From NCBI GenBank assembly GCA_009914755.4, contig CP068257.2, positions 30,080,001-30,144,000 on the forward strand: a DNA stretch of 64,000 bases, written 5' to 3'. Shown in pieces: positions 1,466 through 56,019 of the stretch. The stretch's first letter is position 1. Each line of letters begins with the position of its first letter. The DNA is from the human T2T-CHM13v2.0 reference genome, Homo sapiens. A program made the translations under genes and the position numbers. The notes beneath the pieces were generated by a model. It searched no databases, was not told the DNA's origin, and worked only from the letters and a program-made list of their open reading frames with translations.

Positions 1466-1984
1466 CTACACGTAATTCTTTTGAGAAAAAGAGAGAATCC
1501 TGGAGTTAATCCAGAGCAGTGTTTTTCAAACTGTGGGTTGAGATCCAGGAATGAATTACATAATTCCTACTGTGTGTACTGTGGTCAAAAATATGAAGGA
1601 CAACAGCCCAGGGAAAAATTATTTTGTTTTTAGAAATGAGGAAAATAAGGCCCAAAATAACTGCTAGTCACCTTTCAATAATGTGTAGGTTCCTTCAAAC
1701 CATTAATAAATTTCTCATGGGCAAACCGGAGCGGGGGTGGGGTGGGGGGGGGCAGGGAAGAAGCACTGCCATGTCAGAAAAAAACTTCATGTTTTTCAAT
1801 CAAGTTTAGATACACATAAGTATTATACACAGAGTAGACAACAGATTCAAAGATAATTCAGTTACTTATGACCAACATCCAATTTCAGTCAACAAACCTC
1901 AGGAAAAAAGCTATTAGCTTTATATATCAAGTCTAAAAGCCACAAAATTTAATATAATTCCAACAAAATCTACTAGTGAGAAAA

Positions 1985-2125
1985 ACCAGAAATTGTGGTC
2001 TTCTATAGAGAGTGAGAAAGATTTGGTTTTGAATCTGGGTCTGGCCATGCAGATGACTCTGGGCAAATTAATTTCTCTAAGCCATAATGTCCTCATTTGT
2101 AAAAAGGATATACCGATATCTGCTT
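1985..2125 (+). mobile_element. MIR SINE fragment
   Basis: 'gatgactctgggcaaattaatttctctaagcc..cctcatttgtaaaa' resembles MIR 'gtgaccttgggcaagttacttaacctctctg..cctcatctgtaaaatgg'. Confidence 0.45.
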
Positions 2126-3002: not shown

Positions 3003-3470
3003 TTTGTATTAGTTTCCTATTTCTGTAGTAAGAAATTACCACAAATTTACTGGCTTAAAGCAACACAAATTACACTTTTGAGGTCAGAATCTCACCAGCA
3101 TCAGCAAGGCGACATTCCTTGTAAAGGCTCTAGGGAAGAATCTATTTCTTGTCTAATCTTGCTTCTACAGGGTGCCTACATTCTTTTGGCTCATGGCCTC
3201 TTCTTCCATCTTCAAAGCCAGCAGTATAGCATCTTCTCCTTCTATCTCTTCTGTTGTTTTATTTCCTTCTTTGACTCCTACCTCTCTAGTATAAGGACCC
3301 TTATGATTACACCGGGCCCACCCAGATAATCCAGGATAATTAACCCGTCTCAACATTCTTAACCTTATTCACATCCCCAGTCTCTTTTGCCTTGCAAGGT
3401 AATATATTTACAGGTTTTAGAATTAGATTATGAACATCTTTGGAGAAGGGGGCATTATTTATTACCTAAA
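3003..3470 (+). repeat. ancient interspersed repeat (family not assigned from memory)
   Basis: 'gtattagtttcct..gtagtaagaaattaccacaaatttactggcttaaagcaacacaaatt..gaaggctctagggaagaatc' matches a common mammalian repeat consensus; carries a spurious 126-aa ORF. Confidence 0.4.
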
Positions 3471-5814: not shown

Positions 5815-5869
<55 letters not shown>

Positions 5870-5886
5870 TATATACACATATATAC

Positions 5887-5942
<56 letters not shown>
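5815..5942. repeat. compound microsatellite (TA)n(CA)n(TATACACA)n(CA)n
   Basis: direct reading 'atatatatatatatatacacacacac..catatacacatatatacac..(ca)n..atatat'; gives the repetitive CVCVCV/HTHTHT ORFs in the track. Confidence 0.95.
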
Positions 5943-6233
<291 letters not shown>

Positions 6234-6457
6234 TATATTTTTTTCAACATCTCTTCATTAAAGAAAGTGTCCCTTTAATTATTGATATACAGCTTACTTC
6301 CATATAAATTCCACTTGCTTGTCACAGACTCAAACCTTTTGAAACCTAAACATTTAACCACTTTTCCACTTGCTTAGAGGAAGGTATGAAAACAAGATAA
6401 ATCTGGCATTGTCAATATGAAATACTCCTAAGGTAGAGAAAATTTACAAAGCTTTTT

Positions 6458-6578
6458 CTTTTTGGTACAGATGGGATTTTGCCATGTTAGCCAGGATGGT
6501 TTCGAACTCCTGGTCTCAAGGGATTTGCCAGTCTCAGCCTCCCAAAGTACTGGGATTACAGGCGTGAGCCACCTCATC
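6458..6578 (-). mobile_element. free left Alu monomer-like element (FLAM-type)
   Basis: only ~120 bp: T-tail plus reverse complement of the Alu left arm ('..ccaggatggtttcgaactcctggtctcaag..cctcccaaagtactgggattacaggcgtgagccacc'); TSD 'aaagcttttt' at 6447-6456 and 6589-6598. Confidence 0.6.
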
Positions 6579-6996
6579 CCACCCCGAAAAGCTTTTTAAA
6601 ACAAATAGGGGAAAGATGCTCTACCATTTTCCTGCTCCGACTGAGCAGAGTCTTGTTTGAATGTAAACATTACAAAACAGTTCCATCTACTTCTGTACAA
6701 AATTTACTCTTCAGATTTCAAGAGATTCCAAACCAGGTACTTTCATAAGCAACAAAACCGCACATAATATTCAAATTCAAAATTTTCATACTTACTTCTT
6801 CCTAAATTTCTTTACTATACCATATTCTCCTCCACAATCTTGTTGACTTTTCTTCTAGTTCCGGAATTTAAAGAAATGTTTTACCAAATAAACACATGGA
6901 ATTGCTAAATTACATTTAATAATAAATATAACACCATTTTTAGGTTAACTACTTATATTTCTATGTGCAGTAAGAACATTAAGAAAACAGAATATA

Positions 6997-7310
6997 GGTG
7001 GGGCACGGTGGCTCATGCCCGTAATCCCAGCACTTCGGGAGGCCGAGGTAGACAGATCGCCTGAGGTCAGGAGTTTGAGACCAGCCTGATCAACATGGAG
7101 AAACCCCATCTCTACTAAACATACAAAATTAGCCGGGCGTGGTGGCACATGCCTGTAATCCCAGCTACTCAAGAGGCTGAGCCAGGAGAATCACTTGAAC
7201 CCTAGAGGTGGAGATTGCGGTCAGCCAAGATCACGCCATCGCACTCTAGCCTGGGCAACAAGAACGAAACTCTGTCCCAAAAAAAAACAAAAAACAAAAA
7301 ACAAAAAAAA
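6997..7310 (+). mobile_element. Alu SINE
   Basis: 'ggtggggcacggtggctcatgcccgtaatcccagcacttcgggaggccgagg..' through A-rich tail (caaaaa)n; TSD 'acagaatata'. Confidence 0.9.
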
Positions 7311-7438
7311 CACAACAGAATATAATACACAATGGTTTAAACTTCATCTGCATTATTTTTCACTCTTTAATTGTACCATCGAGCCCTTATTCTATTACCA
7401 TTTACTCCGGGCAGAACTAATTTTCTAAGTATTAATAG

Positions 7439-7837
<399 letters not shown>

Positions 7838-8569
7838 TAGCCTTCACTCAAACTTTCCACTTTTAGAATCAAGGCTGTATACCTCACCAGGGTTTTTAAC
7901 CCTATTGGTTCCAGCTTATCACATTAGGTCATTTTCCAAATGTACTTCCCAAATCAATCCACAACTTCTTCCTTTTCACTTGCTTGAAAGACAGGCCAGG
8001 AGGTGATTTTAGGAAATGCCAAATGTTTTATCCATGCCAGTGCTCTCCTTTAGCAGTACAGGTGCCATACCTCAGCATCACATTTACTGTGCCTCACTAA
8101 TGAACTTCTGGTCTCCCTCCCCTCACAGTTGGCTATTAAAACATTTTTGTGAATTAAACACTTCTTCCTAGACATCAATACAAGAAATAAAAATTGATTC
8201 CAGGACATAAAATCATTTAATTAGAAAACAATATTAATGCTAGCATTTATAAAATCCTTAATGAGTTAAAATTTTTAATGGAGTATAAACTGGTAAAAAG
8301 AATAGACATCTTTAGTTTTAAATGCTGATTACATTTACTGCATTACTGTGGATGGCTCAAAAACTTAACCAAACCTTGTTATTCTTAAACTGTGACAAGT
8401 CCTTCCAAAAGTACACATTATTTTGATAGTTATCACTTGCTACCATGCTTCAGACGTATAAAAGCTGTTCACTGAGTCTTCTCCCCACATAAATGGTCCA
8501 TTAGATAAGGACTCACTGCTCAAAAACTTCACAGCAGCCATGTGGGGCTGTGGACTAGACTCAGATGGG

Positions 8570-8700
8570 CTCTTCAAAGGACTGTGTCAAATCTCAGAAC
8601 TGTTACTTTTACACTGTGTGACCTCAGACCATTCGCCAAACTTCTCTAGTTTCCTTACCTTTAAAATGGAAAGAATGCAAAGACATGTACACAACACCTA
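8570..8700 (+). mobile_element. MIR SINE fragment
   Basis: 'cactgtgtgacctcagac..cttctctagtttccttacctttaaaatgg' parallels the MIR core. Confidence 0.4.
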
Positions 8701-9712
8701 ACTCATTAGCCAGCACCTGGTTATTTAATGGGCAAATGCAGGATTCTTTTCTTGTCCTTCCCTTAAACTGTTCCCACTGGATTACTCCTTAAAATAGTAC
8801 GTCAAAACTAAACCTATCCTTTGAACAAACTTAGGATTCGGGATCAACAAAATAATTTACAGAGCCATGCAGAGGCCGCTAGATAGTTTTCATCTTGACA
8901 GAAAATCAGATAAGGCAAGTAAACAACAAAATGGTTATGATATAACCTGACATTTCTGTGTATTTTACAACAGCTTTGTGATATAAATCACATACCATAA
9001 AAATCCATCCATTTAAAATGGACAATTCAATGGTTTTTGATATATTCAAGAGTTGTGCACCCATCAACACTTTATAGAGTATTTTCATCACCCCCAAAAC
9101 AAATCCCATCCCCATTACCAGTCACTCTCCATTCCTCCTTTTGCTGTCTGCCAGCCAATAATCTACTTTCTGTCTCTACGGGTTTGCTTTATAAAATATA
9201 TCCCTATATTTGTTAAAATAGATAGTGGTAAAAGACCTTCATAAAGATTTGGACTTATTTCAACTGATCCCTAAACTTGGCTGCCCTATCTAAAGTGATT
9301 TAACATTCAGCATCTTTTAATCAATGTAAACTAAGTCATGTATGGCCATTAAAGTTTAAAGACTATTATATATTTCTTAAAGGCTTTAAAACGGATATCA
9401 CAGTAATTTTCGGTATTACAGGTTTCCTTTAAGCAGGGTATTATAATTCTACTTTAACTGAAAGTCAAAAGGAGGAAATATAGAGGAACACTCATGACAG
9501 AATGCATTAAGATATACTGGGCATATTGCAGAGGGAGACTTTACAGACTAGTGGATTGGTCAACTATTGCTCTTTAATGCAACTGCATACCTAGAGTGAG
9601 GCAAGAGGAGCAGTCCACCCAGGTGCAGGCAGTAAGTGGGTGAACTATCAAGACTAAATAAAACAGCAAGACTTTGATTTTGTTCTTTTATTAACATCAA
9701 GCAAGAGCAATT

Positions 9713-10024
<312 letters not shown>

Positions 10025-10662
10025 TAAAAAACCCAGGGATAAAATATATCGCCCCCAAAATATTTTGGCAATACTCTTTAAGTTTTAAGGGGTTGCTGTG
10101 GTTACTGCTGAGTTTTAACAACATAAAAATGTCAAATCTGCACATTTTTATTACATACCCTTTAATAAGCAATCCATCTTAATTGGAAGTTTATTAGGAA
10201 ATCCCCCAGTTATACAGTCAGTTCCCAACACATGCAGATTTGATATACCTGTTCATTTGGAGAGTAAGTACAAAAAGGTTCAGGATAGCTTCAGCTCTCC
10301 TCAGGCTCAGCATGACTCCAATCCTATTGTACCTATATACATTCCTCTGTTTAAATAGTATATTCAAAATTATAGCTGTGTCCAATTTTTCTGAGATAAA
10401 TTTTTTCTGGCATAAATATTTACAAACAACCAGAATCGGCCTCAAACAAATATAGAGATAAATAAAACTTTAAAAGTGAAGACCTGTGAACAAAAATTAT
10501 AGAGATGCCATCACTAAGCAACAAAGTACAAGGAAGCTGTACTTCCTTGTACGTGAATATCAAAAGTGGTTATCAAATATAATAGACATTTACATTGAAT
10601 TTTTAGGTGATAACCATTTCAGTAAAATTTTGACTGAGGCATTTCAAAGTCATTACACTCAA

Positions 10663-10949
<287 letters not shown>

Positions 10950-11240
10950 GTCATTACACTCAATGCTGAAAAAAATACATGGATAGTATTGTGATTTCTA
11001 GAATTTATTGTGAAGTATGCTTATAAATCGCTGCCAAACACAGTATGATGTTTAAAACTTCCTATTTGTGTATGTGTTGCTGTATGTACAACATTTTGTA
11101 ATTAAAATTAATTAAAAGTGCTCTTAACTGTAGGTGAAAACAGATGAATAAATCTGGTTGTAACTGTCTACCGAACACAAATATGTGAAGATCAATTTTA
11201 ATAGTCATTGACAAACCTGCCTAAGACTTTTAAAGATAGT

Positions 11241-11488
11241 GGCCAGCCTGGCCAACATGGTGAAACGCCGTCCCTACTTAAAATACAAAAATTGGCCGGG
11301 CCCGGTGGCGTGCACCTGTAATCTCAGCTACTAGGCAGGGCTGAGGCAGGAGAATTGCTTGAACCCAGGAAACGGAGGTTGCTATGTGCCAAGATCATGC
11401 CACTGCACTCCAGCCTGGGTGACAGAGCAACACTCCGTCTCAAAAAAAACAAAACAAAACAAACAAAACAAAAAACAAAACAAAAAAT
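11241..11488 (+). mobile_element. 5'-truncated Alu SINE
   Basis: starts inside left arm 'ggccagcctggccaacatggtgaaac..' and runs through the right arm to an (caaaa)n tail. Confidence 0.85.
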
Positions 11489-11598
11489 CCTGTAACATTT
11501 GTATTCATTATTGTGACATATCAGTATGCAGATAAGTTTTTCCACTATTTCAAAAAACATATATTAATGCAATTTAAAAGTCTGGTATGATTTATATG

Positions 11599-11642
11599 AT
11601 GTGTGTGTGTGTGTGTGTGTGCGCGCGCGCGCGCGCGCGCAC
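11599..11642. repeat. (GT)11(GC)10 alternating purine-pyrimidine microsatellite
   Basis: 'tgtgtgtgtgtgtgtgtgtgtgcgcgcgcgcgcgcgcgcgcac' read directly. Confidence 0.95.
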
Positions 11643-14041
11643 ATACAGTTCAAGTTTTCTTTCTGGCCATTTCCATTACTCATTTCATGATTATTTCTGA
11701 AAATAATTTTGCTATACAAAAAGGGTGTGTTTTAAAAAAATCTGCTCTGGATGTCAAATATGCCAGCTATACCACTGCTCTCCGGTCTCTTCCAACTGGG
11801 ATTATTGACCCACATGGATTTACACCAAGAATCATCAATTACCCAAACATAAATTATAACTTTCAAGAGGTATTTGGATGGCCATCCACCTTTCACTGAG
11901 CCCTGCTGTTCTCCTCTACCCCCTAGTAAAAACCCGGGCTTCTAATTCTTAACTCCACTGCTGAGTTACACTGGTTTTCTTCCTGAATTTACTACTAATC
12001 TGGTACAGTGCACTTTACTGGAATATAGGGTTTCTGTATACTTACTTATCTATGTCTTAAAAAGCACCAATAAAAAGCTCAAACTACTCAGCAATGAAAT
12101 GTAATCAATAAACGATGCAAATATTGAACAGAATGAAGGTGATCAGGGTATAATAAATTATAATATTGTTTGTAAAATCTCTTGTAGTTCTCAAAATCAC
12201 AGCAGCACAGTATTAATTACACTTAATATTAACACAGAAATGTAGACATGTCTCTCCTAAGCTCTCAACAGATCCTGGTAAGGCCTCTTCTAACGCAAAT
12301 TTAACTATTACCCACCTCTATATTTTCTGTGGTTTGACAGAAACATAATACTAATTAATATACCAATGTTACCAAAATTTTGAACTGTTAATAGGTAAGC
12401 TGCTTATTCTGCTATATACCTGACAACACAGTGTAGTTTTCAGCTTATCATGAAAGTTGTATGCTGTTGCTCTGAAGTGTGCTAAAAAAGGATTTGGCAT
12501 ATTGTCTCAACAAATGTTATGAATAACACTAAAGGTTCATTACTGATGTAACATTTTTTCCCTACTATGTTATCAAGGTGTATTTCAAATGAGATTTGAG
12601 TGTGCGCAGATATGTACAAAAAAGTTACTTCCAATTCTGAAGTAAATTATATTTGTTCGTGCCCCATGACACAGAACAACCTACAATTTTTACAGTGGCT
12701 TCGTATGTGGTAAAGAAAACAAACAAAAAAAAACTACCAATTGTGTCATCTCTCTAGTAGGTACAGTTTTAACCTGAATTCTGTTTCACAAGGTTTAGAA
12801 ACCAACTTTTCCATTATTCTAATTGCTCTCTGAATCAATTCCTCATGTGTTCATGTAATTTTTTCTGAAACAGAATACTAGACAAAATGATAGACTAGGG
12901 AGGGAAATACTTACAACAAGAACATCAGTGATAAACCCCGCTACAGAAAGCTCTGAAGAATCACTTTATCGCAATCACTATAAAGCCAGACCAATACCCT
13001 TGTCAGAAACTAAGAATTCCCTGGGTCAAGAAAGTAGAGAAAGAAAACACTGTATAACCAACTTTCAACATTCAAAAACTCCTGGGATAACAGCACAACA
13101 TGGTCAACTTTTGCAAGGGAAATCTCCAATTTTACTGCCAATAATCGACCTGGTCCTCTACATCTTTTCCATACAGTAAAGAACTTTGAACCCTCTGTCT
13201 ACATGTCTTTAGATAAACGTCTCAGAAATGATCAAACCCCAAACATTAACACTACAGGTTAAAAAAAAAATACTTAATAAGGCATCCCCATCAGATGAAC
13301 TAAATTCTAGAAGACAATCATCCCTAGTAATCAACAATAGTCATACAGAACAATTTACAGTAAGAGAAGGGAGTACCAAGCTCCCACTAAGATGTAAAAC
13401 TCAACTCTTCCTTCAGAATAACATGATTGACAGCCCAACTGGATAAGTGTACCAATGTCAATTCGTACATTAAGTATTCATAAAGCCTAATTTATGTCCA
13501 ATTTTAAAGATAACCATGAATATACAAGTACTCGCATTTTTTTTCTGTACTGCAAAGTAGCATTATATGCATACCACCTCAGCACTGCAGTTCTCAAAGA
13601 GTAATCCAAGGACCTCTGAGAGGTCTTTGAGTCCCTTTCCGTGGTTTGAGGTCAGAACTGTTTTCATATGAATACTAAGATAGTTCTTGCCTTTTTGTTC
13701 GTTTTCTCAGAAGTATGTAGCAGTATATTCCAGAGGCTACCTGATGTGTGTTACTGCAACAGACTGAATGAAAAAGTGGAATGAGGATCCAGGTTTTATT
13801 AAACCAAAGTTTAAATGACGTGCAAAAATGCAAAATGATGTCACTCTTTATTAATTTTTTTGTTTTAGAAACGTTACTTTTCATTAAAAATGTTATTTAT
13901 ATTAACATATTGTAATAAGTTTATTGTTATTTTTAGTAAATTAATAAACACTTGCATTTCTCAGTTTAAATTTCTAATATGGTAAATATCAATAAATATA
14001 ATAACCAATAGATAGATACAAAAGCTCTCTGTGGCCCTTAA

Positions 14042-14336
<295 letters not shown>

Positions 14337-14370
14337 GGTGGCCCTTAACCTTTAAGAATTTAAAAGGATC

Positions 14371-14673
14371 TAGCCAGGCATGGTGGCTCATGCCTGCAAT
14401 CCCAGTACTTTCAGGGGGCTAAGGTGGGCTAATCACTTGAGCTCAGAGGCTTGAGACCAGCATGGGCAACAGAGCCAAACCCCGTGTCTACCGAAAAAAA
14501 TTGAAAAATTAGCCAGGCATGGTGGCAGAGGTTTGTGGTCCCAGCTACTTGGGAGGCTGAGACAGGAGGATGGCTTGAGCCCAGGAGGCGGAGGTTGCAA
14601 TGGGTGGAGTTTGTGCCACTGCCCTCTAGTCTGGGCCACAGAGCCAGACCCTGTCTCAAAAAACAAATAAATG
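14371..14673 (+). mobile_element. Alu SINE (older, diverged)
   Basis: 'agccaggcatggtggctcatgcctgcaatcccagtactttcaggg..' through 'ctgtctcaaaaaacaaataaat'. Confidence 0.85.
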
Positions 14674-15024
14674 GGTCTAAAACCAAAAAGTTTGAGAACA
14701 GCTGTCCTACAGAAATTCCTACACATGCGCACCAGGAGACATGTTTGAAAAGTTCATTGCAGCCTGTCAGCAAAATATTAACTAATCTTAATAGACAGTA
14801 TTAATATTTGAGCAAACAAAAAAAGCAGGTCAAAGCTGCAGTAAGCCGTGCTGGTGCCACTACACTCCAGTATCAGAGAATATTATATATTGTTTATGGA
14901 CCACAGAGATTAATACTAAATTATTTGATTGCCTCTCCTGCAAGTGGGAGGAGGGTTGGGGTTGGAGTGAGGATGAAAGGAAGACTTTATATTTTATTTG
15001 TAAATTAAAAACACAAAATAGTAA

Positions 15025-15368
<344 letters not shown>

Positions 15369-15504
15369 ACTATTTTTGTACTTCAAATGTCTTAAAACTG
15401 CAGATGATGCAAAAAAAGTGGGAGGGGCAAGATACAATTCTTCAGGATTTAGGCAAGATGGGTTAAAGACTAAAAATACAATCAATGGGTTAAAAAACAC
15501 AATC

Positions 15505-15812
<308 letters not shown>

Positions 15813-16494
15813 CTATTCCACAAACTTTAGCAAATTCTTCACATTCAGAAGTATATAAACTATACAACAGACACCATTAAGTATTAGCCATAATTGATAA
15901 CTGATACTTTTTCACTACCCTTTTCATCTTTCACAACACTTAATACATGTCTTGCCATAAAAATTCTCCAAATATTCTGTTAAATGGGTATCTTTAATAA
16001 CCTCTCTTATCTTCCTTTCCTTCTGTATCAGAGATGGACGTCTTTTACTACTGCTTCTGATTTGTCCCATTTCTCTTATCCATAATTTTGCTTCAAGTTA
16101 GCCATCCCCTCTTGCTGGTAAACTATGCTATTCTACACCCCCTTCCTTGAAAATGCTAAAGCCTCTACTCCCATCTAAAAGACTAGGGATTCAACACTAC
16201 TAACTAAAGCTAAAGACTTATATATATACATATAATACAAACAAACGTACTGCCTATCACCAGTGCCTAGTACATTGTTAACTGCCCTTCCTTCCCTCAT
16301 CCTTAAGCAACATTTCCCTCTAATCCCTCAAAACCAAACCTCTAAAGACTACTTTACACTAGCTACCTCTTATTTCCTTATCTCCCATCACCATTCAACC
16401 CTAAACCTCAAATCCTGTTATCCTCAAACATTTCAGTGGCCAAGTCCCCTCATACTATACAAAATATTATCTTTGGACACAATTAAATTGGAGA

Positions 16495-16650
16495 GATCCC
16501 AATTCAAATCCTAGTTCTGCCATTAACTAGCAATATGCCCTTAGGGGAGTTACTATTTATTATAATTTCTTGGAAAATCAGTTTCCTCATCTGTAATTGG
16601 ACGTCTATGCAGGGTTGTGGGAATACATATTAAATTAGATATGTGTACAT
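16495..16650 (+). mobile_element. MIR SINE fragment
   Basis: 'caaatcctagttctgccattaactagc..cagtttcctcatctgtaattgg' follows the MIR core. Confidence 0.45.
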
Positions 16651-19600
16651 ATCTAATGCCTGACATGCCATTGGTCTTATATTAATTCCTTTTTCTCCCC
16701 CTTTCAATTTTCCCCCATCTTTCCCATCTGAACTCCTGGATGTCTCCCTCTATCTCTTAGTTGCTTCCAAGTTTAAGTCCTATAAGCCCAACTACTTGCC
16801 AAAAATTTCCACATGATTGTTCCACAATTAACCTGTTCAAAAATCAAACACATTTTCTTCTCTACTAAGTAGGCTTTTGATGACTTGTGATAAGGGTATC
16901 ACCACTCTCTCAGCCCTTAGGATGTGGGGACAAAAGGTGCTTATAAACCTATCAGATGCCAAGGTCCATGGATTCCTTTGGCCCACATCCTTTTCCTATT
17001 CTCCATTCCCACTATACACTTGCCAAGTTCAGGTTTTACTTATCTTTCCTACCAAGTCTCTGCCTCCTACAACACATAACACTACGAACGAAACAGTTTT
17101 GATTACATTATCCCACTGCTTAAAACCTTCAATGTTTACCCACAGCCTAAAACTGAAATTCAAACACATTAGGCAAACATGAAACTTGTCAGGCCCAAAC
17201 TACTTTACCATCCTTACTTTCCAGTAGCCTTCAGAATCAAAATACTCACTTTTCAGCACTACTGCCCTTCGATCACTGCTTCCTACATCTTCTGAAATCC
17301 TAAAACTGATACCTGCTCCTCTTCCCAAGCCTTCACTTATCTCCAATGGCTATGCCACACTGCAATGGAAGGATCCCAAAGGAAGCTGTTCTACCTCCTA
17401 TTAAAATTATTTGTCTAAGTCTTATGTCCTCTATTGGATTAGACTTTTAGGTGACTGAAATCCTTGGTAGCTCTACAGTATTCAGGACATGGCTGTGCAG
17501 GTGAGCAGGCACTCAAAAGTTTAAGTGAAGATCAGATCTCAGAGATTCAAGATTATATGGGGAACGAATCAAGAACATTTCATGAATGGGGAGAAATAGT
17601 TGAGAAGCACTACAAATCAAGTAGGCACAGTAAGATGAATTTTAAACTCAGATTAATTTCTCTAGAGGAGTTTTAATCTAGCAGAAGAGAGCTGGCATTC
17701 TTTGCAGTTCATAAAGACTAGGAATAGAACTGAAATGAACTGGAAAATGAACAATGATAAGAAAATGCTCATTTTGCACATTTAAAAGGTCAAATATCAC
17801 TTCCCTTTTTCAAGGAATCAATACCATTCCTAACTTTGGTTTTTCAAAGTAAAAATTACTGATTGTGCCTTTTCAGGATTAATAGAAAATACTTTGCTTA
17901 ACAATGTGCTTGATGTCAACTTCCATAATGCCTGAATCAGAATACTTCTGATCTTAAGAATAAACTAAAAATCCTCTTCTTTCATCAAAAACATTCATTC
18001 TTCCGATTCTGAAATAAATTTTTAAAATACACATTCATTGTTGGGAGAAAAATGTACTTGAAATATTTTAACTATTGTTGTGCCATTTGTTTAAATTCTC
18101 ATTCAACAATTATTTGCGAGGCACCTGTTTTGATTGGTAGAGAAGCGGGGAAAAGAACTGAAACTTCCTGCCCTCATGGAGCCAGGAGCCAACATGCCAG
18201 TGAATTCTACCTTCAGAAAACAATCAGCTTCCAACCCTGAAATGTTTGGAGCATTATCACAAATTCTCTGGCGATCAAAAACTAGGACATATTATTTTTA
18301 TTGTTTTGAAAATCATCACAACTGAACTTTTACAAGACACTGTCCAATACCAGTTGCAACTTCTGCAGTTAGGGCATTTTATGTACCCATCAATTGAAGA
18401 AAATCACTTTTAGGATAATTTATATGGCAATAAATTGTCTCAACTGCAGTGTAATTGGAAAGTCCCATATATTATGGCACTGCAAATCTAAAGGAAAGTT
18501 ATTGCACCATAATTGTTACAAGTAAACCTACAAAATCTGTGAGATGCAGCACGTTTTTAACGCCACATCCACACATCTCGAACTACAACATTTGATTTTT
18601 CAATGTTGCTTTATCTTTGGTATTTGGAAAGGGAAGACAATACAACTCAACCCATGACAATAGTTCCCATTCTGTAACTGCATTTTAAATCATCAATGGT
18701 CAAGTCTCCTCCTCCCAAATCGATTCTGACAAATAGGATGTATGGACTCTACACTCCAAAAGCAACACCTGGAATGATCAGAGAAACAACTAGAGAACTT
18801 TAAGGCCGCAGGCAGCTTTGTTCCCAGTTTGGAGAGGTTTTCACATGTAAATGTCCTCGTAGAAGGGAGCCGAGGATTAACTACCTCGGGAGGGGGTGCG
18901 AGGGTAGGGAACTGGAGGACAACGCCAGCTTTCTAGCGGACTAAGGCGGAGCGAATACTCTTCTCTCCCATTCAACTTTTTAGGCGTCACGTTGGGGCCA
19001 TAGAGCCTATAAGAGGGTTATGTTCACGACTTTAAATTATAACGAGCCACCCCCTCTCCGTTTATTAGCCCTATTTCCCAAGTGCGTGAATCCCGGAGAA
19101 GGGGGATGAACACCCTCTTCAACTCCTCCCAGACCCGGGATCAGAGTCCAGCCGTCGACGCGCCGCGGCCTGAGCAACAGGAGAGCTGAAGCCACCTCTC
19201 CGCCAGCCCCACGACCGGCAGATGCTCCCGCTCCCCCGCCCCCAACCCCACACGCCCGCCCGCGCTTCTTTCTTAGCCCTTTGCGGGCTCCCGGCACTGC
19301 GAACCCGACAACGGGGCTCGCGGAGCAGAGAGCGAGGGCGCCCAGACCCGAAAAAGGGCCAAGTTAGAGGAACAGGCACAGACTTGGGCTATGGGAGGCC
19401 GCAAGGGGGCGAGGGGAGAAGCCCGAGGTCGCGGTCCGGGGGTGGGCAGTGGGGGGAGGGGTGCGGGGTCAGTTCCCGTGGTCGCCGCGACCTCTCCCGG
19501 GCCACAGGCCCCGCTCCGCGCAGGCCCCGCCGCCCCGGAACCGGGGCAGGAAGCGTCCCCACCCGGACCAAAGCTTTAAACCTCCGGCGGCGGGAGAAAC

Positions 19601-19654
19601 GAGCCCCGGCTCCCGCAGCAGGCCCGGCACCCCCCTGCCCCAAACACCCCTTAC

Positions 19655-19684
19655 CTCCTGGTTGAAGGCGTTGACGGCGTCCAT
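19655..19684 (-). CDS. SCAF4: coding part of a first exon: ATG + 9 codons (MDAVNAFNQE) ending at a GT splice donor; matches the N-terminus of SR-related CTD-associated factor 4
   Basis: minus strand reads 'gcgaacATGGACGCCGTCAACGCCTTCAACCAGGAG|gtaagg'. Kozak has A at -3 and G at +4; the donor GTAAGG (19649-19654) directly follows codon 10. The remembered SCAF4 protein starts MDAVNAFNQE-LFSLMDMKPP, i.e. the exon would break exactly after E. Sits in the middle of the CpG island. Gene identity is from memory, not a search. Confidence 0.55.
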
Positions 19685-20100
19685 GTTCGCGCTGCGGCGG
19701 CGGCTGCTCCGGGCCCGCCGGTCACATAGACCTCGCGCCGCGGCGGAGCGGGGCTGGGAAACCAGCCGGGCCTGGTGGCCGGGGGGAGGCGACGAGCGGC
19801 GGAGTCCGAGGCCCGGGCAGGAAGAGGCTGCGCCCGAAGCGGCGAGGCGGGCGGCCGAGGCAGAGGCGGAGAGGTGGCGGGCCCCCTCTCAGTCCCGTTC
19901 GCAGGATGAGGAAAAGGAGGCGGCGGCAGCGCTGGTCTTCAACATGTCCGTTTGGTGGTGGCGGCTGCGCTCTGCGTCTCGCTGACACGGCCCCCCGCGC
20001 CCTCACGCACTGGCTCACACTGGCCCGGCCGGCGAGCGGGCGGGCCTCTCTCTCCCTCTCTCCAGCGGGATGGCGGCAGCGGCCCGAGTCCACGCCGCGC
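19685..20100 (-). promoter_or_regulatory. SCAF4: inferred 5'UTR and core promoter of the minus-strand gene (TSS not determinable from sequence)
   Basis: GC-rich, TATA-less CpG-island sequence immediately upstream of the ATG on the minus strand; a minimal start-stop 'ATGTGA' (plus coordinates 19722-19727) lies 38 nt upstream of the main ATG. Confidence 0.4.
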
Positions 20101-21489
20101 GGGGCACCCTGGGACGGCTCAGGCCTCCCGGCGCTTCCTGTGCCCGGCGTTCGCCCCGCCCCGTCGCGCTGGCCCCGCCCCCTCCCCGCCTCGTCCCGCC
20201 CTGCGCCGCCCTGCACCGCCCCGCGTGCAGGGCTGCTGGCGCGTGACGCCGGGACGCTGGGCGCTTTCCCGCCGGCGGCGGCGGCGGCCGCGGCCGCGGG
20301 CCGGGGAGACGGCCTTGCAGAGCGCGGGATCCCAGGGCTGCGAGGGTGACCCAGAGCAAGCCCTGGCGCACGCGCGCTCCGCTCGACGCGGTGCTCCCGG
20401 GGTGCGTCTCTGCGAAACGCTCGGCCCTAACCGGCCCTGCACCCGGCGGGGGCGGCGGGCACTGAGCCGCTGGCTCTCGGCTGCCGCGAACAAAGGGCGC
20501 AGGATTTAACCTCGGCTCTCTGGGCGTGCCTTTGCAGGCCCTCGTGCGCTCTGCTGGGGAAAAGAAAAAAAGCTTCTGCCAATGCCAGTGCAGCTGTGTG
20601 TCCGCTGTAGTTGTGCAGGTTAATTCTGCGCGAGCGAAAACACCGAGAAAGACGTTCAGGCACTGGATATCCACGCAGGCCTTAAGGAACCCCTGTGCAG
20701 CCTTGTGCCACGAGAGGAGTGGATTCACTAACTTTCACGCTGATTCCTCAAACCAAGTTGTTTCATTTTTGGCCAAAACTCTTTATGTTGATCACTTTCC
20801 TTGAGTACCTACTGTCTGCCTAGTGTTGGAGACATGGAAATAAACGATAATTGTTTTGCCTGAAAACAGCACAGTTTAGTGGAGAGGACAGACAACTGAG
20901 CAGATACTTACCAAAGCATGCTTAGTGTTAGGGCACAGGCCCTGGGAAACGAGAAAGATGCGCCTCCGACAGGAAGTCCAGGCTACATCTGGAGGGAGGA
21001 GAGGCCTGCAGAGCCTGATGAGGACTGCCACCATCACCTCCCCCGAAGGAGGACCAGCTGGAGCTGAGGAGCAAGGTGGACTGAGAGAGGAGAGTGAGAC
21101 CATAAAGAGGCTTTGCTCTTCCAGAGTTTGGATTTTGCCCCCATAAGGCAGAGGGGAGCCCTTGAAAGGGGAAGGTGGAGTGATGGATGCAGTGTTCTCT
21201 CAGAAGGATGGTGCAAAGTAGTAAGAGGAGACAGGGAAAGAATGACCCCAGCCCCCTGGGAAAATGAGGGCTGAAGGTGGTGGCGATAGAGAAGGAAGAA
21301 CAGATGTTTAGGAAGTGGAGTGGAAGGGCTGAGGCAGAGTAACTGTGAGGTTAATAAAGGGGGTGTCAAGGAGGATGCCCACAGCCTGACTTGATGAATG
21401 ACCTGGGTGGTGGGTTTATGAGTCAACGTAGGGGATTTATGGGGAAGAAGGCGTGGGTTTGAGGGAAGACAGAATGATGGTTAACACTT

Positions 21490-21700
21490 GTCGCTTACCA
21501 TGTGCCAACGTCTGCTGACATGCTATTCTGTACTCTCCGTAACAGGCTTCTGGGTGAGGTGTCCATTAGTAATGCCCTCATTTTATAATTCAGGGAGTGA
21601 GTTAATTAATGTGCCCAAGGTCACACAGCTGGATCATTTCCCTTTGGTGCCTGTGGAGTTTGAGCTGCGCCTGGGACAAGTAAGTGAGGATGTCTAGGAG
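21490..21700 (-). mobile_element. MIR SINE fragment
   Basis: 'gtgcccaaggtcacacagctgg' is the reverse complement of MIR 'gctgtgtgaccttgggcaag' region; preceded by 'cattttataattcaggg'. Confidence 0.45.
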
Positions 21701-22160
21701 GCAGTTGGGTAAACACTTGCAGAGTCAGGAGCGATGGCTGAGATGATAGAAATCTGGGAGTCATTAGTGCACAGCTAGTGGTGGAAGGAGCTGAAATAGA
21801 TAGGGGGAAAAAGCCCAGGAACACGGGTATGTAAGGGATAAGTTGGAGGCAAGAAGAGGTGAAGAGAGAGCTCTGAAGTGATCAGCTCTGTCTGGTGCTT
21901 GGAGTAGAAGTCCAGCAAGATAAGAATTGGAAAGTGCCTGACGGGTGCTACATGCAGGGAGCTTGTCCTGCGTGTAGGCTGGCGTGGTGAGGGCAAAAGC
22001 TAGACTGATGTGTATCAAAGAGGGGAAGGCAGGCAGGAGAAAGTTTATAGAAACTTGGCTGTGAAGGCAAGTTGTGAAGACAACAGAAAAAACCTGCAGG
22101 AGGAAGTGAGAGTGTTTGCTTGTGTGTTGTTTTGTTTTGAGATGAGAGTAATGTACTCTT

Positions 22161-27523: not shown

Positions 27524-27865
27524 TCACAAATGGGTGTTAATGTTGTCAGATACCATGGCTATATTCATTGGGATGATTATGTGATTTTGTCTATTCTATT
27601 ATATTAATGAATTACTGTGATTGGTTTTTGAATGTGAAACCAACCTGGCATTCCTATAATAAAATCCACTTGGTTATGGGATATTACTTTTTTTATATGT
27701 TGCCGGGTTCAATTTGCAAAGATTCTGTCTGTCAAAATATTTCCTTCTATATTCATGAGTGGTATTGGTGGTCTCTGTTTTCCTTTTCTTGTAATGGTTT
27801 TGGTGTCGGGGTAGCTTGCTCTCATCAAATTATTTGATAAGTGCTTCTCTCCTTCCCTGTTATCT

Positions 27866-28161
<296 letters not shown>

Positions 28162-28604
28162 TCCTTCTCTATTTTCTAAAATAGCCTGTGTGGAATTGAT
28201 ATTATTTCTTTCTTAAGATTTGTTAGAATTCACCAATGAAGCCACTTGGGCCTAAAGTTTTGCTTATGAGAGGGTTTTATATTAATCAATTTTTAAAATT
28301 GATATAGTGTTCTTCAGGTCTTCTGTTTCTCGAGGGAGTTTTGATCATTTGTATTTTTTTCAGAAAATTGTCCATTTAAAGGTTGTCAATTTATTGCATA
28401 AAGTTTTTCCATGATATTCTGTTATTACCCTTTTAATGTCTGTAGTGATATTTCCTCTTTCATTTCTGATATTGATAATTTCTATCTTCTTTTTTTTCTT
28501 TTCTTGTTGAGTGAGGTTAGAGATTCATCTATTTTGTTGTTCCAAAAACCAAAGAAACAGTTTTTGGTTTCATTGATTAGCTCTATTGTTTGTGGACTTT
28601 CTAG

Positions 28605-28971
<367 letters not shown>

Positions 28972-29016
28972 TCTTTTCCGGTTTCTTAAAGTGGAGGCCT
29001 AGATCATTGATTTTAG

Positions 29017-29277
<261 letters not shown>

Positions 29278-29615
29278 GCCTTTTTTTTTTTTTTTTTTTT
29301 TGTATTGTAAGCATTTAAAACTTTAAATTTACTTCTCAAATTTTGGAGTGTTGTATTTCTTAAATATTTAGTTCAAAATATTTTGTAATTTCCCTTGGGA
29401 GTTTTTCTTTTCCCTAAGTTCTTATTTATGAAAGTATTGTTTAAATTCCAAATAGTTGGGAATTTCTGTTATCTTTCTGTGATTGATTATACTAATCGAA
29501 TTCCATTATAGTCACATATCATACTTCATATGATTTCAGTTTTTTTTTAATTATTGTGACTTGTTTTGTGGCTCAATTCATGGTCTACCTAGATGATTGC
29601 TCCATGTGCACTTTA

Positions 29616-29744
29616 AAATAATATATATTCCGCTCTTGTTAGGTAGGATAATAATATATATTCCGCTCTTGTTAGGTAGGATAATAATATATATTCCGCT
29701 CTTGTTAGGTAGGATAATAATATATATTCCGCTCTTGTTAGGTT
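29616..29744. repeat. 4 x 33-bp perfect tandem repeat (minisatellite) derived from L1 sequence
   Basis: unit 'ataataatatatattccgctcttgttaggtagg' repeated with no mismatch. The unit corresponds to L1 antisense 'agaagaatgtgtattctgctgttgttgggtgg', which is single-copy in the L1 consensus. The 33-nt period keeps all frames open, which explains the PNKSGIYIIIL/IPLLLGRIIIY ORFs in the track. Confidence 0.9.
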
Positions 29745-29864
29745 CTGTTAACGTCTCTTGGATCAAGTTGGTTGATGGTATTATTTAAGTCTTCTAGATT
29801 TCTATTCTTTTTCTACCTGCTTATTATGTCAATTAGAGAGGAGATTTGATGTCTCCTGATGTGA

Positions 29865-30211
<347 letters not shown>

Positions 30212-30760
30212 TGACTCATGTATATTGAAGCTTTGTTACTAGGTACGTAAAAATTTAGCATTATTATTTCTCCTTGATGAATAGACTCCTTATCAATTGG
30301 AAAATTTTCTCTTTTTTCTGGTAACATTCCTTGCCCTGAATTCTCTTTTACCTGATATTGAAAAGCCACTTTGGCTTTCTTGTGGTTAATACTTGCTTGG
30401 TATATTTTTTTTCCATCCTTTTGCCTTTAATCTATCTGTGTCTTTATTTTTAAAGTGGATTTTTTTTGTGGACAGCATATAGTTGGGCCTTGCATTTCAG
30501 TCCATTCTGACATGTCTGACTTAACTGAATTGTTTAGACCATTCACATTTAATGTAGTTGTCAATAGGGTTGAGTTTCATTCTACCATTTTGCTGTCTGT
30601 TTTCGGTTTGTCCTGTCTGCTCTACTATTTTTCTCTTCATTTGGCTTTTTTTGGCATAGTTGAGTATTTTATTAGTATTTTATTTGAACTCTACTAGTTA
30701 ACTTACTATGTGCACCTCTTTTTCTTTAGTGGTTGATCTAAGGTTTACAATATGCATCTT

Positions 30761-31061
30761 TTTTTTTTTTTTTTTTTTTTGAGACGGAGTGTTGCTCTGT
30801 GGCCCAGGCTGGAGTGCAGTGGCGCTATCTCAGCTGAGTGCAAGCTCCGCCTCCCAGGTTCATGCCATTCTCCTGCCTCAGCCTCCTGAGTAGCTGGGAC
30901 TACAGGTGCCTGCCACCATGCCTGGCTAATTTTTTGTAATTTTAGTAGAGACGGGGTTTCACCATGTTAGCCAGGATGGTCTCGATCTCCTGACATTCTG
31001 ATCCACCTGCCTCGGCCTCCCAAAGTGCTGGGATTACAGGCGTGAGCCACCGCACCTGGCC
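30761..31061 (-). mobile_element. Alu SINE (inside L1) with 16-bp TSD
   Basis: 22-nt poly-T then reverse-complement Alu; TSD 'tacaatatgcatcttt' at 30745-30760 and 31062-31077. Confidence 0.9.
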
Positions 31062-31395
31062 TACAATATGCATCTTTAAGTTATTACAGTCCACTTTCAA
31101 ATAAACTTATGCTACTCGACATATAATGTGTGATTCTTATTATATGCCTCTATTTCCTCTCCAATCCTGTGCTTATTGTTGTTTTATATTTTATTTCTAC
31201 ATGTATATTTTATAAGCCTACAATACATTAATATTGTTTTTTCTTTAGTCATTATTTTGAAAACAAGAAAATACTTTTTGTATTTTCCCACATATTTAAC
31301 ATTTTCAGTACTCTTCATTCCTGTGTATAGATCCAAGTTTCCATCTGTTGTCAATTTTCTTTTTCATAGGGAAGTTTCTTTCATATTTGTTTTAG

Positions 31396-32470
<1,075 letters not shown>

Positions 32471-39358: not shown

Positions 39359-39700
39359 GGCCAGGGGTGGTGGCTCACGCCTATAATCCCAGCACTTTAG
39401 GAGGCCGAGGTGGGTGGGTCACCTGAGGTCAGGAGTTTGAGACCAGCCTGGCCAACATGGCAAAACTCCGTCTCTACTAAAAATGCAAAAATTCGCCAGG
39501 CGTGGTGGCACATGCCTGTAATCCCAGCTACTTGAGAGGCTGAGGCACAAGAATCGCTTGAACCCAGGATGGGGAGGTTGTAGTGAGCCGAGATTGCGCC
39601 ACTGCACTCCAGAGTGCACTGCAACAGAGTGAGACTCTGTCTCAAAAAAAAAAAAAAAAAAGCAAACAAACAAACAAAAAACCGTAAATGAAACAAACAA
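39359..39700 (+). mobile_element. Alu SINE with duplicated 3' tail
   Basis: 'ggccaggggtggtggctcacgcctataatcccagcactttaggaggccgagg..'; the tail carries 'acaaacaaaaaaccgtaaatgaa' twice. Confidence 0.9.
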
Positions 39701-39977
39701 AAAACCGTAAATGAATTTTGTGTTTAGACTTGAGTTTCAACCCCAAGGTATGTATGTGCAAATATTCCAAAAAGTGAAAACATCTGAAATCTGAGACATT
39801 TCTGGTCCCAGGTATTTCACACAAGAGATATTCAACCTGTATTATTAAGCACATGCTGGACATCATGCTAAGCCCTTTTCATGCATTACACATGAAACCT
39901 CCCAACCAGCCTCTACTGTTAAGCCAATTTCACAGAAGAGGAACCGAAGCAAAGGAAAGATAGGCTATGGTCTAGAG

Positions 39978-44934: not shown

Positions 44935-45125
44935 TTTTTCCCTGACTACTAGCTTTGTGACCTTGGACAAGTTACTTAGCCTCTTCATGCCTTGGTTTTC
45001 TTATCTGTAAAATGGGGATAATAATAGCATAGGGTTTTTTGAGAATTAAATGAGCAAAGAGTTTGGACTAGAACTTTGCACTTAGTAAGCACTATGAAAG
45101 TGTTTTTAAATAATATATAAATATT
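44935..45125 (+). mobile_element. MIR SINE
   Basis: 'actagctttgtgaccttggacaagttacttagcctcttcatgccttggttttcttatctgtaaaatggggataataatagcatagggtttttgagaattaaatgag..cacttagtaagcac' is close to the MIR consensus core and 3' half. Confidence 0.75.
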
Positions 45126-45209
45126 TGAGAATTAAATGAGCAGTGTTTGGACTAGAACTTTGCACTTAGTAAGCACCACGAAAGTGTTTTTAAATAATAT
45201 ATAAATATT
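45040..45209. repeat. tandem duplication (2 x about 85 bp) of the MIR 3' half
   Basis: 'tgagaattaaatgagca(aaga)gtttggactagaactttgcacttagtaagcac(ta/ca)(t/c)gaaagtgtttttaaataatatataaatatt' appears twice, differing at 3 substitutions and one 2-bp indel. Confidence 0.9.
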
Positions 45210-45544
45210 TTTTTCTTCCCCTGCTACTACATCATCACCATGGTTAATTCCCATCTTCAAGTATTTCTCCTCAAATACTTGTGTCATCTTGATCTAGTTG
45301 GTTTTTGCCTACTATGCATGAAATAATGTTTTACATTACAGTGTGTTGTTACTTTTCACACAGGGATTTAGATCAGGGTTGGCAGAATTATGGCCAAATC
45401 CAGCCCACCATCTGCTTTCATAAATAAAGTTTTATTGGAACCCAGCCACTGCCATCATTTACATATTTTCATATGCTATGATTGGCAGAGTTGTGTAGTT
45501 ACAGCAAAGAACGTATGGCCTGCAAAGCCTAAAATATTATCTAG

Positions 45545-47487: not shown

Positions 47488-47970
<483 letters not shown>

Positions 47971-48155
47971 CTTCAGACATGTTTTATTATAATCTTATAC
48001 AGCCTACTTGTATTTATTTGGGTTCAGTTATAACATAGCATAATAAGAATAAAATACCTGGGTGATGAAATAATAGGTACAAAAAAATCCCTGTGACATG
48101 TGTTTACTTATGTAACTAACCTTCACATGTATCCCAAACCTAAAATAAAAGTTAA

Positions 48156-49015: not shown

Positions 49016-49567
<552 letters not shown>

Positions 49568-55618: not shown

Positions 55619-56019
55619 AGGTATCAATGGTATACTGAACCTCTAAAATGAGAAAATGTGTTAGGTAAGCTTCCCATGTTTTCCTAGGATCAGAGGCAGT
55701 TTATATAGAATTATCTCTTCCTTAAAGCTTTGTCAGAATCTACCTGAAAAGCCCTCTGGACTCAGTGTCTGTTTTAGGGATAGATCTTTGAGTATCTCTT
55801 TAAGTTCCTTGATAGTAATGATTCTATTTAACATTCCTAATTTTCCTTGAATGAATCTTTGTAATTAATATTTTTCTAGGATATTAGTCTCTTCATCCAG
55901 TACTTTTCAAAATGCTTGCCATGAAGATAAACATTCTTAGTTTTTGACTTGTGATTTTTTCTTGAAAGATAAGCCAAAGTTTTGCCTTTCTATTACTTCT
56001 CTCAAAAAACAAGTTAATT

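What the first reader, a model, noticed from the sequence alone, without database searches (positions are those of the whole stretch)
29616..29744. Perfect 4 x 33-bp tandem array that arose inside the L1 (candidate VNTR)
The L1 consensus has this 33-mer once. Here it is present four times with zero mismatches, whereas the surrounding old L1 is about 20-30% diverged. That implies a recent expansion, or ongoing copy-number instability, on an old background, so it is likely polymorphic in length between haplotypes. A period of 33 preserves reading frame, producing the repetitive ORFs in the track. Those ORFs are artefacts.
Basis: seen in the sequence. Interest (0 to 1): 0.5.

Follow-up and report, generated by a model that had tools for sequence, protein, structure and literature searches.

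The report
Young 33-bp minisatellite inside old L1
A 33-base piece of a long-dead L1 retrotransposon has been copied head-to-tail into a flawless array of nearly four units; this is an ordinary, young, probably neutral tandem duplication whose variability between people could not be tested here.

Summary
Tandem Repeats Finder reports window 29617-29743, period 33, 3.8 copies, 100% matches and no indels. That is three full units plus a 28-bp truncated fourth, so 127 bp rather than 4 x 33 = 132.

The array lies in the endonuclease-coding part of ORF2 of an ancient, minus-strand L1 that carries five nested Alus. With the array collapsed to one unit, the stitched L1 frames align collinearly with human L1 ORF2p residues 143-236 (E about 1e-11). 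L1 therefore has this segment once, and 99 bp are extra.

Calibrated on the four full-length Alus nested in the same L1, 127 bp as old as those Alus should carry about 11 substitutions (P of none = 1.4e-5). The four-copy state is at most about 0.27 of the Alu age. That makes it younger than the L1 and the Alus, but it does not show ongoing instability.

A 7-bp deficit relative to L1 sits exactly at the truncated edge.

Polymorphism and primate orthologs could not be tested, because every route to other copies of the locus returned nothing. The two repetitive ORFs are artefacts.

The array lies about 9.9 kb upstream of the start codon of what is probably SCAF4. It is an ordinary transposon-derived minisatellite of low interest.

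The parts
29617..29649 (-). Unit 1 of the array (33 bp, + strand AATAATATATATTCCGCTCTTGTTAGGTAGGAT). In the L1 sense (minus) frame it reads LTRAEYILLSY-type codons.
29650..29682 (-). Unit 2, identical to unit 1.
29683..29715 (-). Unit 3, identical to unit 1.
29716..29743 (-). Truncated unit 4. It matches the first 28 bp of the unit and lacks the terminal AGGAT.
29743..29744 (.). Right edge of the array. A 7-bp deficit relative to L1 and the L1 frameshift fall exactly here.
   Evidence: The gap appears in the alignment to the L1M-like probe. Counting against ORF2p codons gives 26 nt against 33 nt between the D(I/V) and EY codons.
29744..29912 (-). L1 ORF2 endonuclease remnant, about aa 143-187 (GDIKSPL... 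NQLDPRDVNRT), on the N-terminal side of the array in L1 sense.
29307..29630 (-). L1 ORF2 remnant, aa 190-305 (AEYILF*SAHGAII*VDH...). It runs from the leftmost unit of the array on into the left flank.
29913..30212 (-). AluS-like element inserted into the L1, 170 bp from the array. It was used as the local molecular clock: 5.5% non-CpG and 40% CpG-site divergence from the in-window Alu consensus.
30211..30576 (-). L1 ORF2 endonuclease remnant, aa 5-127, from the same L1 on the other side of the Alu.
29597..29788 (+). Artefactual 63-aa ORF with an 11-aa repeat (IIYIPLLLGRI), on the strand antisense to the L1.
   Evidence: It is listed. It is not on record and has no relative in 5.8 billion proteins.
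29578..29766 (-). Artefactual 62-aa ORF with an 11-aa repeat (ILPNKSGIYII), out of frame with the L1 ORF2 reading.

Best explanation
The feature is a young minisatellite derived from a transposon. A 33-bp stretch of a decayed, minus-strand L1 was duplicated locally, head to tail. The stretch encodes the part of the ORF2 endonuclease domain around the (S/A)-x-EYTFF motif, near ORF2p residue 190.

The likely mechanism is replication slippage or unequal sister-chromatid exchange. One initiating duplication creates 28-33 bp of perfect homology, and further misalignment between the copies adds whole units.

The favoured history is this:
- The ancestral L1 copy read ...TTGTTAGGTAGGATGTTCTG... on the + strand.
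- The 33-mer ending in AGGAT expanded to four copies.
- A single 7-bp deletion (GTAGGAT, between two GT dinucleotides) then removed the end of the last unit plus two flanking bases.
- That one deletion explains both the truncated terminal unit and the 7-bp L1 deficit and frameshift at the same point.

The array has no coding, RNA or recognisable regulatory role and is most likely neutral.

Shown: the array itself, its L1 origin, the single copy in L1, and its youth relative to the nested Alus. Inferred: the mechanism, the order of events and neutrality.
For: - The array is perfect and unique in the window.
- L1 identity and collinearity: the L1-sense translation hits only human LINE-1 ORF2p/endonuclease chains in the PDB. 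With the uncollapsed four-copy translation as the query, E = 0.007 and only the last unit onward aligns, to aa 188-236. With one unit kept and the frames stitched, E = 1e-11 for aa 143-236, with no extra repeat in ORF2p. tblastn places aa 5-127, 190-305 and 500-588 in order on the minus strand.
- Old background: 78% identity to an L1M/L1P-like probe over 640 columns, stops in every frame, and five Alus nested in 3.5 kb.
- Youth of the copies: the nested Alus show 6.1% non-CpG and 37% CpG-site divergence from a 42-copy in-window consensus. That predicts 11.2 changes in 127 bp against 0 observed (P = 1.4e-5; at L1 age P is about 7e-15). All four CpGs are intact.
- A truncated terminal unit is a recognised mark of slipped-strand origin, and L1-associated minisatellites number in the hundreds (PMC3389668).
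- No sign of function: no single-strand structure (z = +0.66), no Rfam match, no protein relatives, and no Jeffreys core, PRDM9 or chi motif above chance.
Against: - No ortholog or second haplotype was obtained, so the single-copy ancestral state, the order of events and the timing are inferred from one sequence.
- The terminal AGGAT matches the L1 probes at only 2 of 5 ungapped positions. It could therefore be a filler insertion at the first duplication junction rather than L1 sequence.
- Gene conversion could keep an older array perfect, which would void the age bound.
Only the protein-level L1 comparison rests on a database.
- The Alu clock uses a mixed-subfamily in-window consensus and assumed Alu ages.
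Confidence: 0.85

Rival explanations
1. The array is an actively unstable, length-polymorphic VNTR in present-day humans. Frequent slippage or unequal exchange keeps adding and removing units, so haplotypes carry different numbers.
For: Perfect unit identity and nearly 4 copies give 94 bp of perfect out-of-register homology. All four hypermutable CpGs are intact. About one in five human minisatellite loci showed a non-reference allele in 2770 genomes (PMC8096271). From general knowledge, repeat purity is a predictor of variability.
Against: This was not tested. No other haplotype was retrievable. Zero mismatches in 127 bp is also expected for a fixed array up to about 8-11 Myr old. The unit is AT-rich (30% GC) and lacks recombination-associated motifs. 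From general knowledge, classical hypervariable minisatellites are GC-rich. Only about 3% of loci are commonly polymorphic (PMC8096271). No paper links a VNTR to this locus.
Confidence: 0.4
2. The first event was a complex duplication rather than clean slippage. A 28-bp L1 segment was duplicated with a 5-bp filler (AGGAT) at the junction, as in end-joining or template-switch repair. The 33-bp period (28 + 5) then expanded by unequal exchange. The 7-bp L1 deficit at the edge would be part of the same break repair or an unrelated older deletion.
For: The array is exactly 28 + 3 x (5 + 28) bp, which this model produces with no extra deletion. AGGAT matches the L1 probes poorly at 2 of 5 ungapped positions (and my own alignment of the sequences). 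TAGGTAGGAT looks like a local stutter of TAGG.
Against: This model needs the 7-bp L1 deficit to fall at the array edge by coincidence or through an unspecified linked event. Restoring AGGAT plus GT brings the locus back to L1 length without gaps, which favours an L1 origin for the 5 bp.
Confidence: 0.35
3. The array is a functional cis-regulatory tandem element about 10 kb upstream of the SCAF4 promoter, and selection or homogenisation maintains its perfect copies.
For: It lies 9,933 bp upstream of the ATG of what is probably SCAF4 exon 1, which sits in a CpG island. The literature reports VNTRs enriched near transcription start sites and enhancers (PMC8096271).
Against: No motif, structure or conservation evidence was found. 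The unit is AT-rich decayed L1 sequence. Two other perfect short tandem duplications occur in the same 64 kb, so such events are routine here. No literature connects SCAF4 with a VNTR.
Confidence: 0.03
4. The array is an assembly or sequencing artefact, that is, a spurious expansion of a single-copy segment.
For: Nothing specific supports this. Perfect identity is what an artefact would also give.
Against: The period, the in-register copies and the clean flanks are typical of real minisatellites. The truncated unit coincides with a 7-bp L1 deficit, which is a biological signature rather than an assembler's. This could not be tested directly.
Confidence: 0.02

Closest known systems
Transposon-derived single-locus minisatellites (Ahmed & Liang 2012, PMC3389668)
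   Same: A tandem array whose unit is an internal piece of a transposable element. It was generated in place by local duplication, present at one locus, with at least 95% identity between units. It has an incomplete terminal unit, as expected for slipped-strand origin. That survey counted 601 L1-associated arrays.
   Different: The unit is 30% GC, below the 40% cut-off of that survey, so this array would not have been in its catalogue. The host is an ancient L1 rather than the young, active elements that the survey found most prone. The terminal unit is 15% short, against their criterion of 10% or less.
Human minisatellite VNTRs as genotyped genome-wide (VNTRseek; Eslami Rasekh et al. 2021, PMC8096271)
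   Same: The pattern is at least 7 bp, there are at least 1.8 copies, it is detectable by TRF, and the 127-bp array is short enough to be spanned by 150-bp reads only just. The proposed mutational mechanisms are the same: slipped-strand mispairing, unequal crossover and gene conversion.
   Different: Membership requires observed copy-number variation, which was not tested here. The unit was not found in the part of that paper's supplementary files held as text.
Classical hypervariable (Jeffreys-type) minisatellites
   Same: The unit length (33 bp) is in the classical range, and the organisation is head-to-tail.
   Different: Those arrays are GC-rich, often have tens to hundreds of units with internal variants, share a G-rich core, and sit near recombination hotspots (general knowledge). 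This array is AT-rich, has 3.85 identical units and matches the core no better than chance.
Human L1 ORF2p endonuclease domain (PDB 1VYB, 8SP5; full-length 8SXT, 8UW3)
   Same: The host sequence aligns collinearly with residues 143-236. The repeated unit covers the residues just before and including the EYTFF strand.
   Different: The host is a dead relic with stops, frameshifts, Alu insertions and about 30% amino-acid identity. The repeat is a DNA-level accident, not a protein repeat.

Membership tests
Minisatellite (tandem repeat) | Two or more adjacent head-to-tail copies of a pattern of 7 bp to a few hundred bp | tested here: met
   TRF gives period 33, 3.8 copies and 100% matches. The copies are in register.
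Transposon-derived minisatellite | The unit is similar to a transposable-element sequence, or the array overlaps an element by at least one period | tested here: met
   The L1-sense translation of the unit plus flanks aligns with human L1 ORF2p aa 143-236, E about 1e-11. L1 pieces lie on both sides in collinear order.
Transposon-derived minisatellite | The segment is single-copy in the element itself, so the array arose in place and was not inherited from the source element | tested here: met
   ORF2p has the segment once. Perfect copies on a background about 22% diverged exclude inheritance from the L1 source. The correct L1 subfamily consensus (Dfam/Repbase) was not available.
Transposon-derived minisatellite (catalogue criteria of PMC3389668) | Unit over 20 bp, at least 95% identity between units, GC at least 40% | tested here: not met
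   The unit is 33 bp and identity is 100%, but GC is 30%. This is a catalogue filter, not a biological criterion.
VNTR (variable number tandem repeat) | Copy number differs between individuals of a population | not testable with these tools
   No second copy of the locus could be retrieved from any collection.
Human- or ape-specific tandem repeat expansion | Fewer units (ideally one) at the orthologous locus of outgroup primates | not testable with these tools
   No primate genomes are held. Only an upper age bound from the sequence itself is available.
Hypervariable GC-rich minisatellite | GC-rich unit with a G-rich core or hotspot motif | tested here: not met
   GC is 30%. The best matches to the Jeffreys core, the PRDM9 13-mer and chi each have 3 mismatches, no better than 48-72% of random pieces of the window.
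Slipped-strand-initiated tandem repeat | Incomplete terminal unit at one end of the array | tested here: met
   The last unit is 28 of 33 bp. This is a consistent hallmark, not proof of mechanism (PMC3389668).
Protein-coding repeat | An ORF with relatives or a domain match, in a frame supported by its context | tested here: not met
   The ORFs of 62 and 63 aa have no relatives and no record. Pfam finds nothing for the L1-sense reading. That frame has no start codon and is bounded by stops.
Structured RNA or DNA hairpin element | A fold more stable than shuffles, or a match to an RNA family | tested here: not met
   The DNA fold gives z = +0.66. Rfam finds nothing at gathering score or at E up to 1.

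The most novel reading that the evidence does not exclude
The array is a human- or hominine-specific expansion that is still polymorphic, and its copy number modulates the activity of an upstream regulatory region of SCAF4. SCAF4 is a regulator of transcription termination that, from my own knowledge, is linked to neurodevelopmental disorder. That would make the array a VNTR expression QTL about 10 kb upstream of the promoter.
Probability: 0.02. Interest if true: 0.4.

Novelty: new member of a known kind. Interest (0 to 1): 0.1.

Why it matters
The finding matters little. If the array is polymorphic, it would be one more minisatellite marker on (probably) chromosome 21q22.11, upstream of SCAF4, just short enough to genotype with 150-bp reads. 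It is a tidy textbook example of how a dead transposon seeds a tandem repeat. Two details are useful. The truncated end coincides with a 7-bp loss, and the nested Alus supply a local clock. It opens no outstanding question. A score-254 TRF array in a reference genome is almost certainly already in the standard simple-repeat tracks, although I could not check that.

Tried and rejected
Searches for other haplotypes or orthologs all came back empty:
- Exact-protein look-ups of the two array ORFs and of a flanking 129-aa ORF.
- A homology search with the 63-aa array ORF.
- Exact DNA scans with a left-flank 30-mer and a unit-junction 32-mer in metagenome contigs and genome contigs, and with the unit-junction 32-mer alone in viral contigs.
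- An attempt to reach primate genomes through SCAF4 proteins, followed by encoding-contig look-ups with a 10-kb flank. It failed because the search returned only short fragments or non-primate entries and no full-length human or ape SCAF4.
- I ran no further search on the minus-strand ORF. That ORF has a single possible start codon, so the failed exact look-up already shows that the 4-copy allele is not in the collection.

Literature searches also found nothing:
- Full-text search for the unit sequence.
- Search of the VNTRseek paper's supplementary files held as text.
- Search for 'SCAF4' together with 'VNTR'.

Functional readings I rejected:
- A coding repeat.
- A structured RNA or DNA element.
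- A recombination-motif minisatellite.
- Inheritance of the repeat from the L1 source element, which perfect copies on a roughly 22% diverged background exclude.

One caution on method. The first PDB query, using the out-of-frame ORF, gave only a chance hit to TRIM45 at E = 1.1. The correct L1 frame had to be found by translating all three frames.

Full report
**1. The observation**

Reading the sequence and running Tandem Repeats Finder (and on the whole window) confirm a perfect tandem array at 29617-29743. The period is 33, with 3.8 copies, 100% matches, no indels and score 254. The consensus unit is AATAATATATATTCCGCTCTTGTTAGGTAGGAT.

The three full units are 29617-29649, 29650-29682 and 29683-29715. 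A fourth unit, 29716-29743, stops after 28 bp. The bases just outside (TTTAA before, TCTGT after) do not continue the pattern.

The unit occurs nowhere else in the window at up to three mismatches, and none of 100 shuffles gave a match. The observation itself is real.

**2. What the array sits in**

The + strand here is T-rich (AT skew -0.32), and the L1 lies on the minus strand.

Translating the minus strand in three frames shows the decayed L1 ORF2 endonuclease. The pieces ...GDIKSPL......NRNLEDLNNTINQLDPRDVNRT... and ...AEYILF*SAHGAII*VDHELSHKTSHNN*KKTEII*SMICDYNGIRLV... can all be recognised.

In the L1 frame the array reads LTRAEYILLSY three times and then LTRAEYILF. A PDB sequence search with that frame hits only human LINE-1 ORF2p and endonuclease chains (aa 188-236, E = 0.007).

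When one unit is kept and the three frames are stitched, the alignment runs collinearly over ORF2p residues 143-236 at E about 1e-11. ORF2p has the (S/A)-x-EYTFF segment once. The locus is thus L1 plus 99 extra bases.

It translates to an intact 932-aa ORF and agrees with the PDB fragments. By tblastn it places aa 5-127 at 30576-30211, aa 190-305 at 29630-29307 and aa 500-588 at 27855-27595, all on the minus strand and in order.

Five Alus of the same orientation interrupt this 3.5-kb L1 stretch. They lie at roughly 27865-28160, 28670-28972, 29019-29280, 29913-30212 and 30759-31062.

No other L1 fragment in the window covers the repeated segment.

**3. How old is the background, and how young are the copies?**

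An L1M/L1P-like antisense probe, also from memory, aligns to the window at 78.3% identity over 640 columns once the array is collapsed and the Alu is cut out. The probe's source cannot be verified here, but a meaningless string would not align like this. The L1HS probe gives 62%.

For a clock that does not depend on memory, I built a consensus from 42 near-full-length Alus of the window. The four full-length Alus nested in this L1 differ from it at 5.5-7.2% of non-CpG sites and 30-43% of CpG sites.

Applying those rates to the array (119 non-CpG bases and 8 CpG bases) predicts 11.2 substitutions if all copies were as old as the Alus. None is seen, so P = 1.4e-5. At the age of the L1, P is about 7e-15.

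The 95% upper bounds are as follows:
- The four-copy state is at most 0.27 of the Alu age.
- The first duplication is at most 0.55 of the Alu age.

With the textbook 30-40 Myr for AluS-type elements (general knowledge), these are about 8-11 Myr and 16-22 Myr.

The array is therefore clearly younger than its surroundings. 'Recent' could still mean anything from a segregating human variant to an event in the ancestor of the African apes. Gene conversion could also keep an older array clean. Perfect identity over 127 bp does not show ongoing instability.

**4. Anatomy of the edges and mechanism**

A clean tandem duplication of a 33-bp segment would give a multiple of 33. This array is 5 bp short at its right end.

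Exactly there, the locus is also 7 bp shorter than L1. The alignment to the L1M-like probe has its gap at this point. There are 26 nt where ORF2 has 33 nt between the D(I/V) and EY codons, and the L1 frame shifts at this point.

The simplest history is this:
- The ancestral copy read ...TTGTTAGGTAGGATGTTCTG..., which has the same length as L1.
- The 33-mer expanded by slippage or unequal sister-chromatid exchange.
- One 7-bp deletion (GTAGGAT, between two GT dinucleotides) removed the end of the last unit together with two flanking bases.

The alternative is a 28-bp duplication with a 5-bp filler (AGGAT) at the first junction, followed by expansion of the 28+5 period. AGGAT matches the L1 probes at only 2 of 5 ungapped positions, so this cannot be excluded. 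I rate the two about 60:40. A single-copy primate ortholog would decide between them.

An incomplete terminal unit is the recognised hallmark of slipped-strand origin (PMC3389668).

**5. Function**

None is indicated:
- The two repetitive ORFs (63 aa on +, 62 aa on -) are out of the L1 frame. They have no relatives among 5.8 billion proteins and are not on record.
- The L1-frame reading has no Pfam match.
- The single strand does not fold better than shuffles (z = +0.66).
- Rfam finds nothing.
- The unit is 30% GC with a 10-bp AT palindrome and one CpG.
- It matches the Jeffreys core, the PRDM9 motif and chi no better than chance.
- Perfect two-copy tandem duplications of 23 and 37 bp occur elsewhere in the same 64 kb, so small young duplications are routine here.

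**6. Polymorphism: not testable here**

I tried exact-protein look-ups, a homology search with the array ORF, and DNA scans of three collections with flank and junction patterns. I also tried a detour through SCAF4 proteins to reach primate genomes. All returned nothing usable.

The published base rate is that about one in five minisatellite loci showed a non-reference allele in 2770 genomes, and about 3% are commonly polymorphic (PMC8096271). Perfect purity and nearly four copies raise the odds, while AT-richness and the small array lower them. My estimate is about 0.4 that some length variation exists in humans.

**7. Genomic context**

Window 19684-19655 on the minus strand reads ATG GAC GCC GTC AAC GCC TTC AAC CAG GAG, followed by a gtaagg splice donor, inside a CpG island.

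MDAVNAFNQE is the N-terminus of human SCAF4, as confirmed against PDB 6XKB. The window is therefore very probably the SCAF4 promoter region. From memory this is chr21q22.11. The array lies 9,933 bp upstream of the start codon, outside the gene. No paper in the library links SCAF4 with a VNTR, and none contains the unit sequence.

**8. Comparison and verdict**

This is an ordinary member of a well-described class, the single-locus minisatellite derived from a transposable element. That class makes up 23% of human minisatellites and satellites and includes 601 L1-associated arrays (PMC3389668).

The array would have been filtered out of that catalogue only because of its low GC. It is not shown to be a VNTR, and it is not a Jeffreys-type hypervariable locus.

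The step from 'perfect' to 'likely polymorphic or ongoing' is plausible but unproven. Interest is low.

Noticed in passing
window 19655-19684 (minus strand); CpG island about 18000-22000: ATG GAC GCC GTC AAC GCC TTC AAC CAG GAG followed by a gtaagg donor encodes MDAVNAFNQE, the N-terminus of human SCAF4 (PDB 6XKB). This is probably SCAF4 exon 1 and promoter. Exon 2 is not in the window, so 1-19654 would be intron 1.
   Followed up: partly
whole window: The window is very Alu-dense. At least 42 near-full-length Alus lie in 64 kb. Most are 3-10% diverged at non-CpG sites from the in-window consensus, and seven are older at 15-18%.
   Followed up: partly
window 27865-31062: Five Alus, all in the same orientation as the host L1, are nested within 3.5 kb of it. 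The one at 30759-31062 has a clear 14-bp target-site duplication (tacaatatgcatct).
   Followed up: partly
window 29034-29275: This Alu has an internal deletion: the stretch between ...ctcagg and cgtgagcc... is missing. It is followed by a T21 run at 29281-29301.
   Followed up: no
window 39668-39715 and 63503-63575: Two more perfect tandem duplications are present: 23 bp x 2.1 and 37 bp x 2.0, both at 100% matches. These are young two-copy events of the kind that could seed arrays like the one studied.
   Followed up: no
window 45038-45210: An 84-bp unit is present twice at 94% identity. This is an older tandem duplication.
   Followed up: no
window 5831-5935: An (AC)52 microsatellite at 92% purity. 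It is long enough to be a likely length polymorphism.
   Followed up: no
window 49027-49218 and 47820-47973: Long polypyrimidine tracts of (CTCC/TTCC/TCTC)n type, about 190 bp and 150 bp. Mirror-repeat-like sequence of this kind can form triplex DNA.
   Followed up: no
window 20152-20224: (CGCCC)n, 14.6 copies at 65% matches, lies inside the CpG island and about 0.5 kb upstream of the putative SCAF4 ATG. On the gene strand it reads as GC-box-like GGGCG repeats.
   Followed up: no
window 32251-32443 and 55619-57096 (minus strand): Further L1 ORF2 remnants cover aa 860-930 and aa 229-518. The first is out of order with the L1 that hosts the array, so it belongs to a separate or rearranged element.
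   Followed up: no
window 29630-29633 and each unit: The unit carries a CpG (TTCCGCTC) where both L1 probes have TG (TTCTGCTG or TTCTGTTG). The CpG arose by T-to-C change in this L1 copy before the duplication, and it is intact in all four units.
   Followed up: partly
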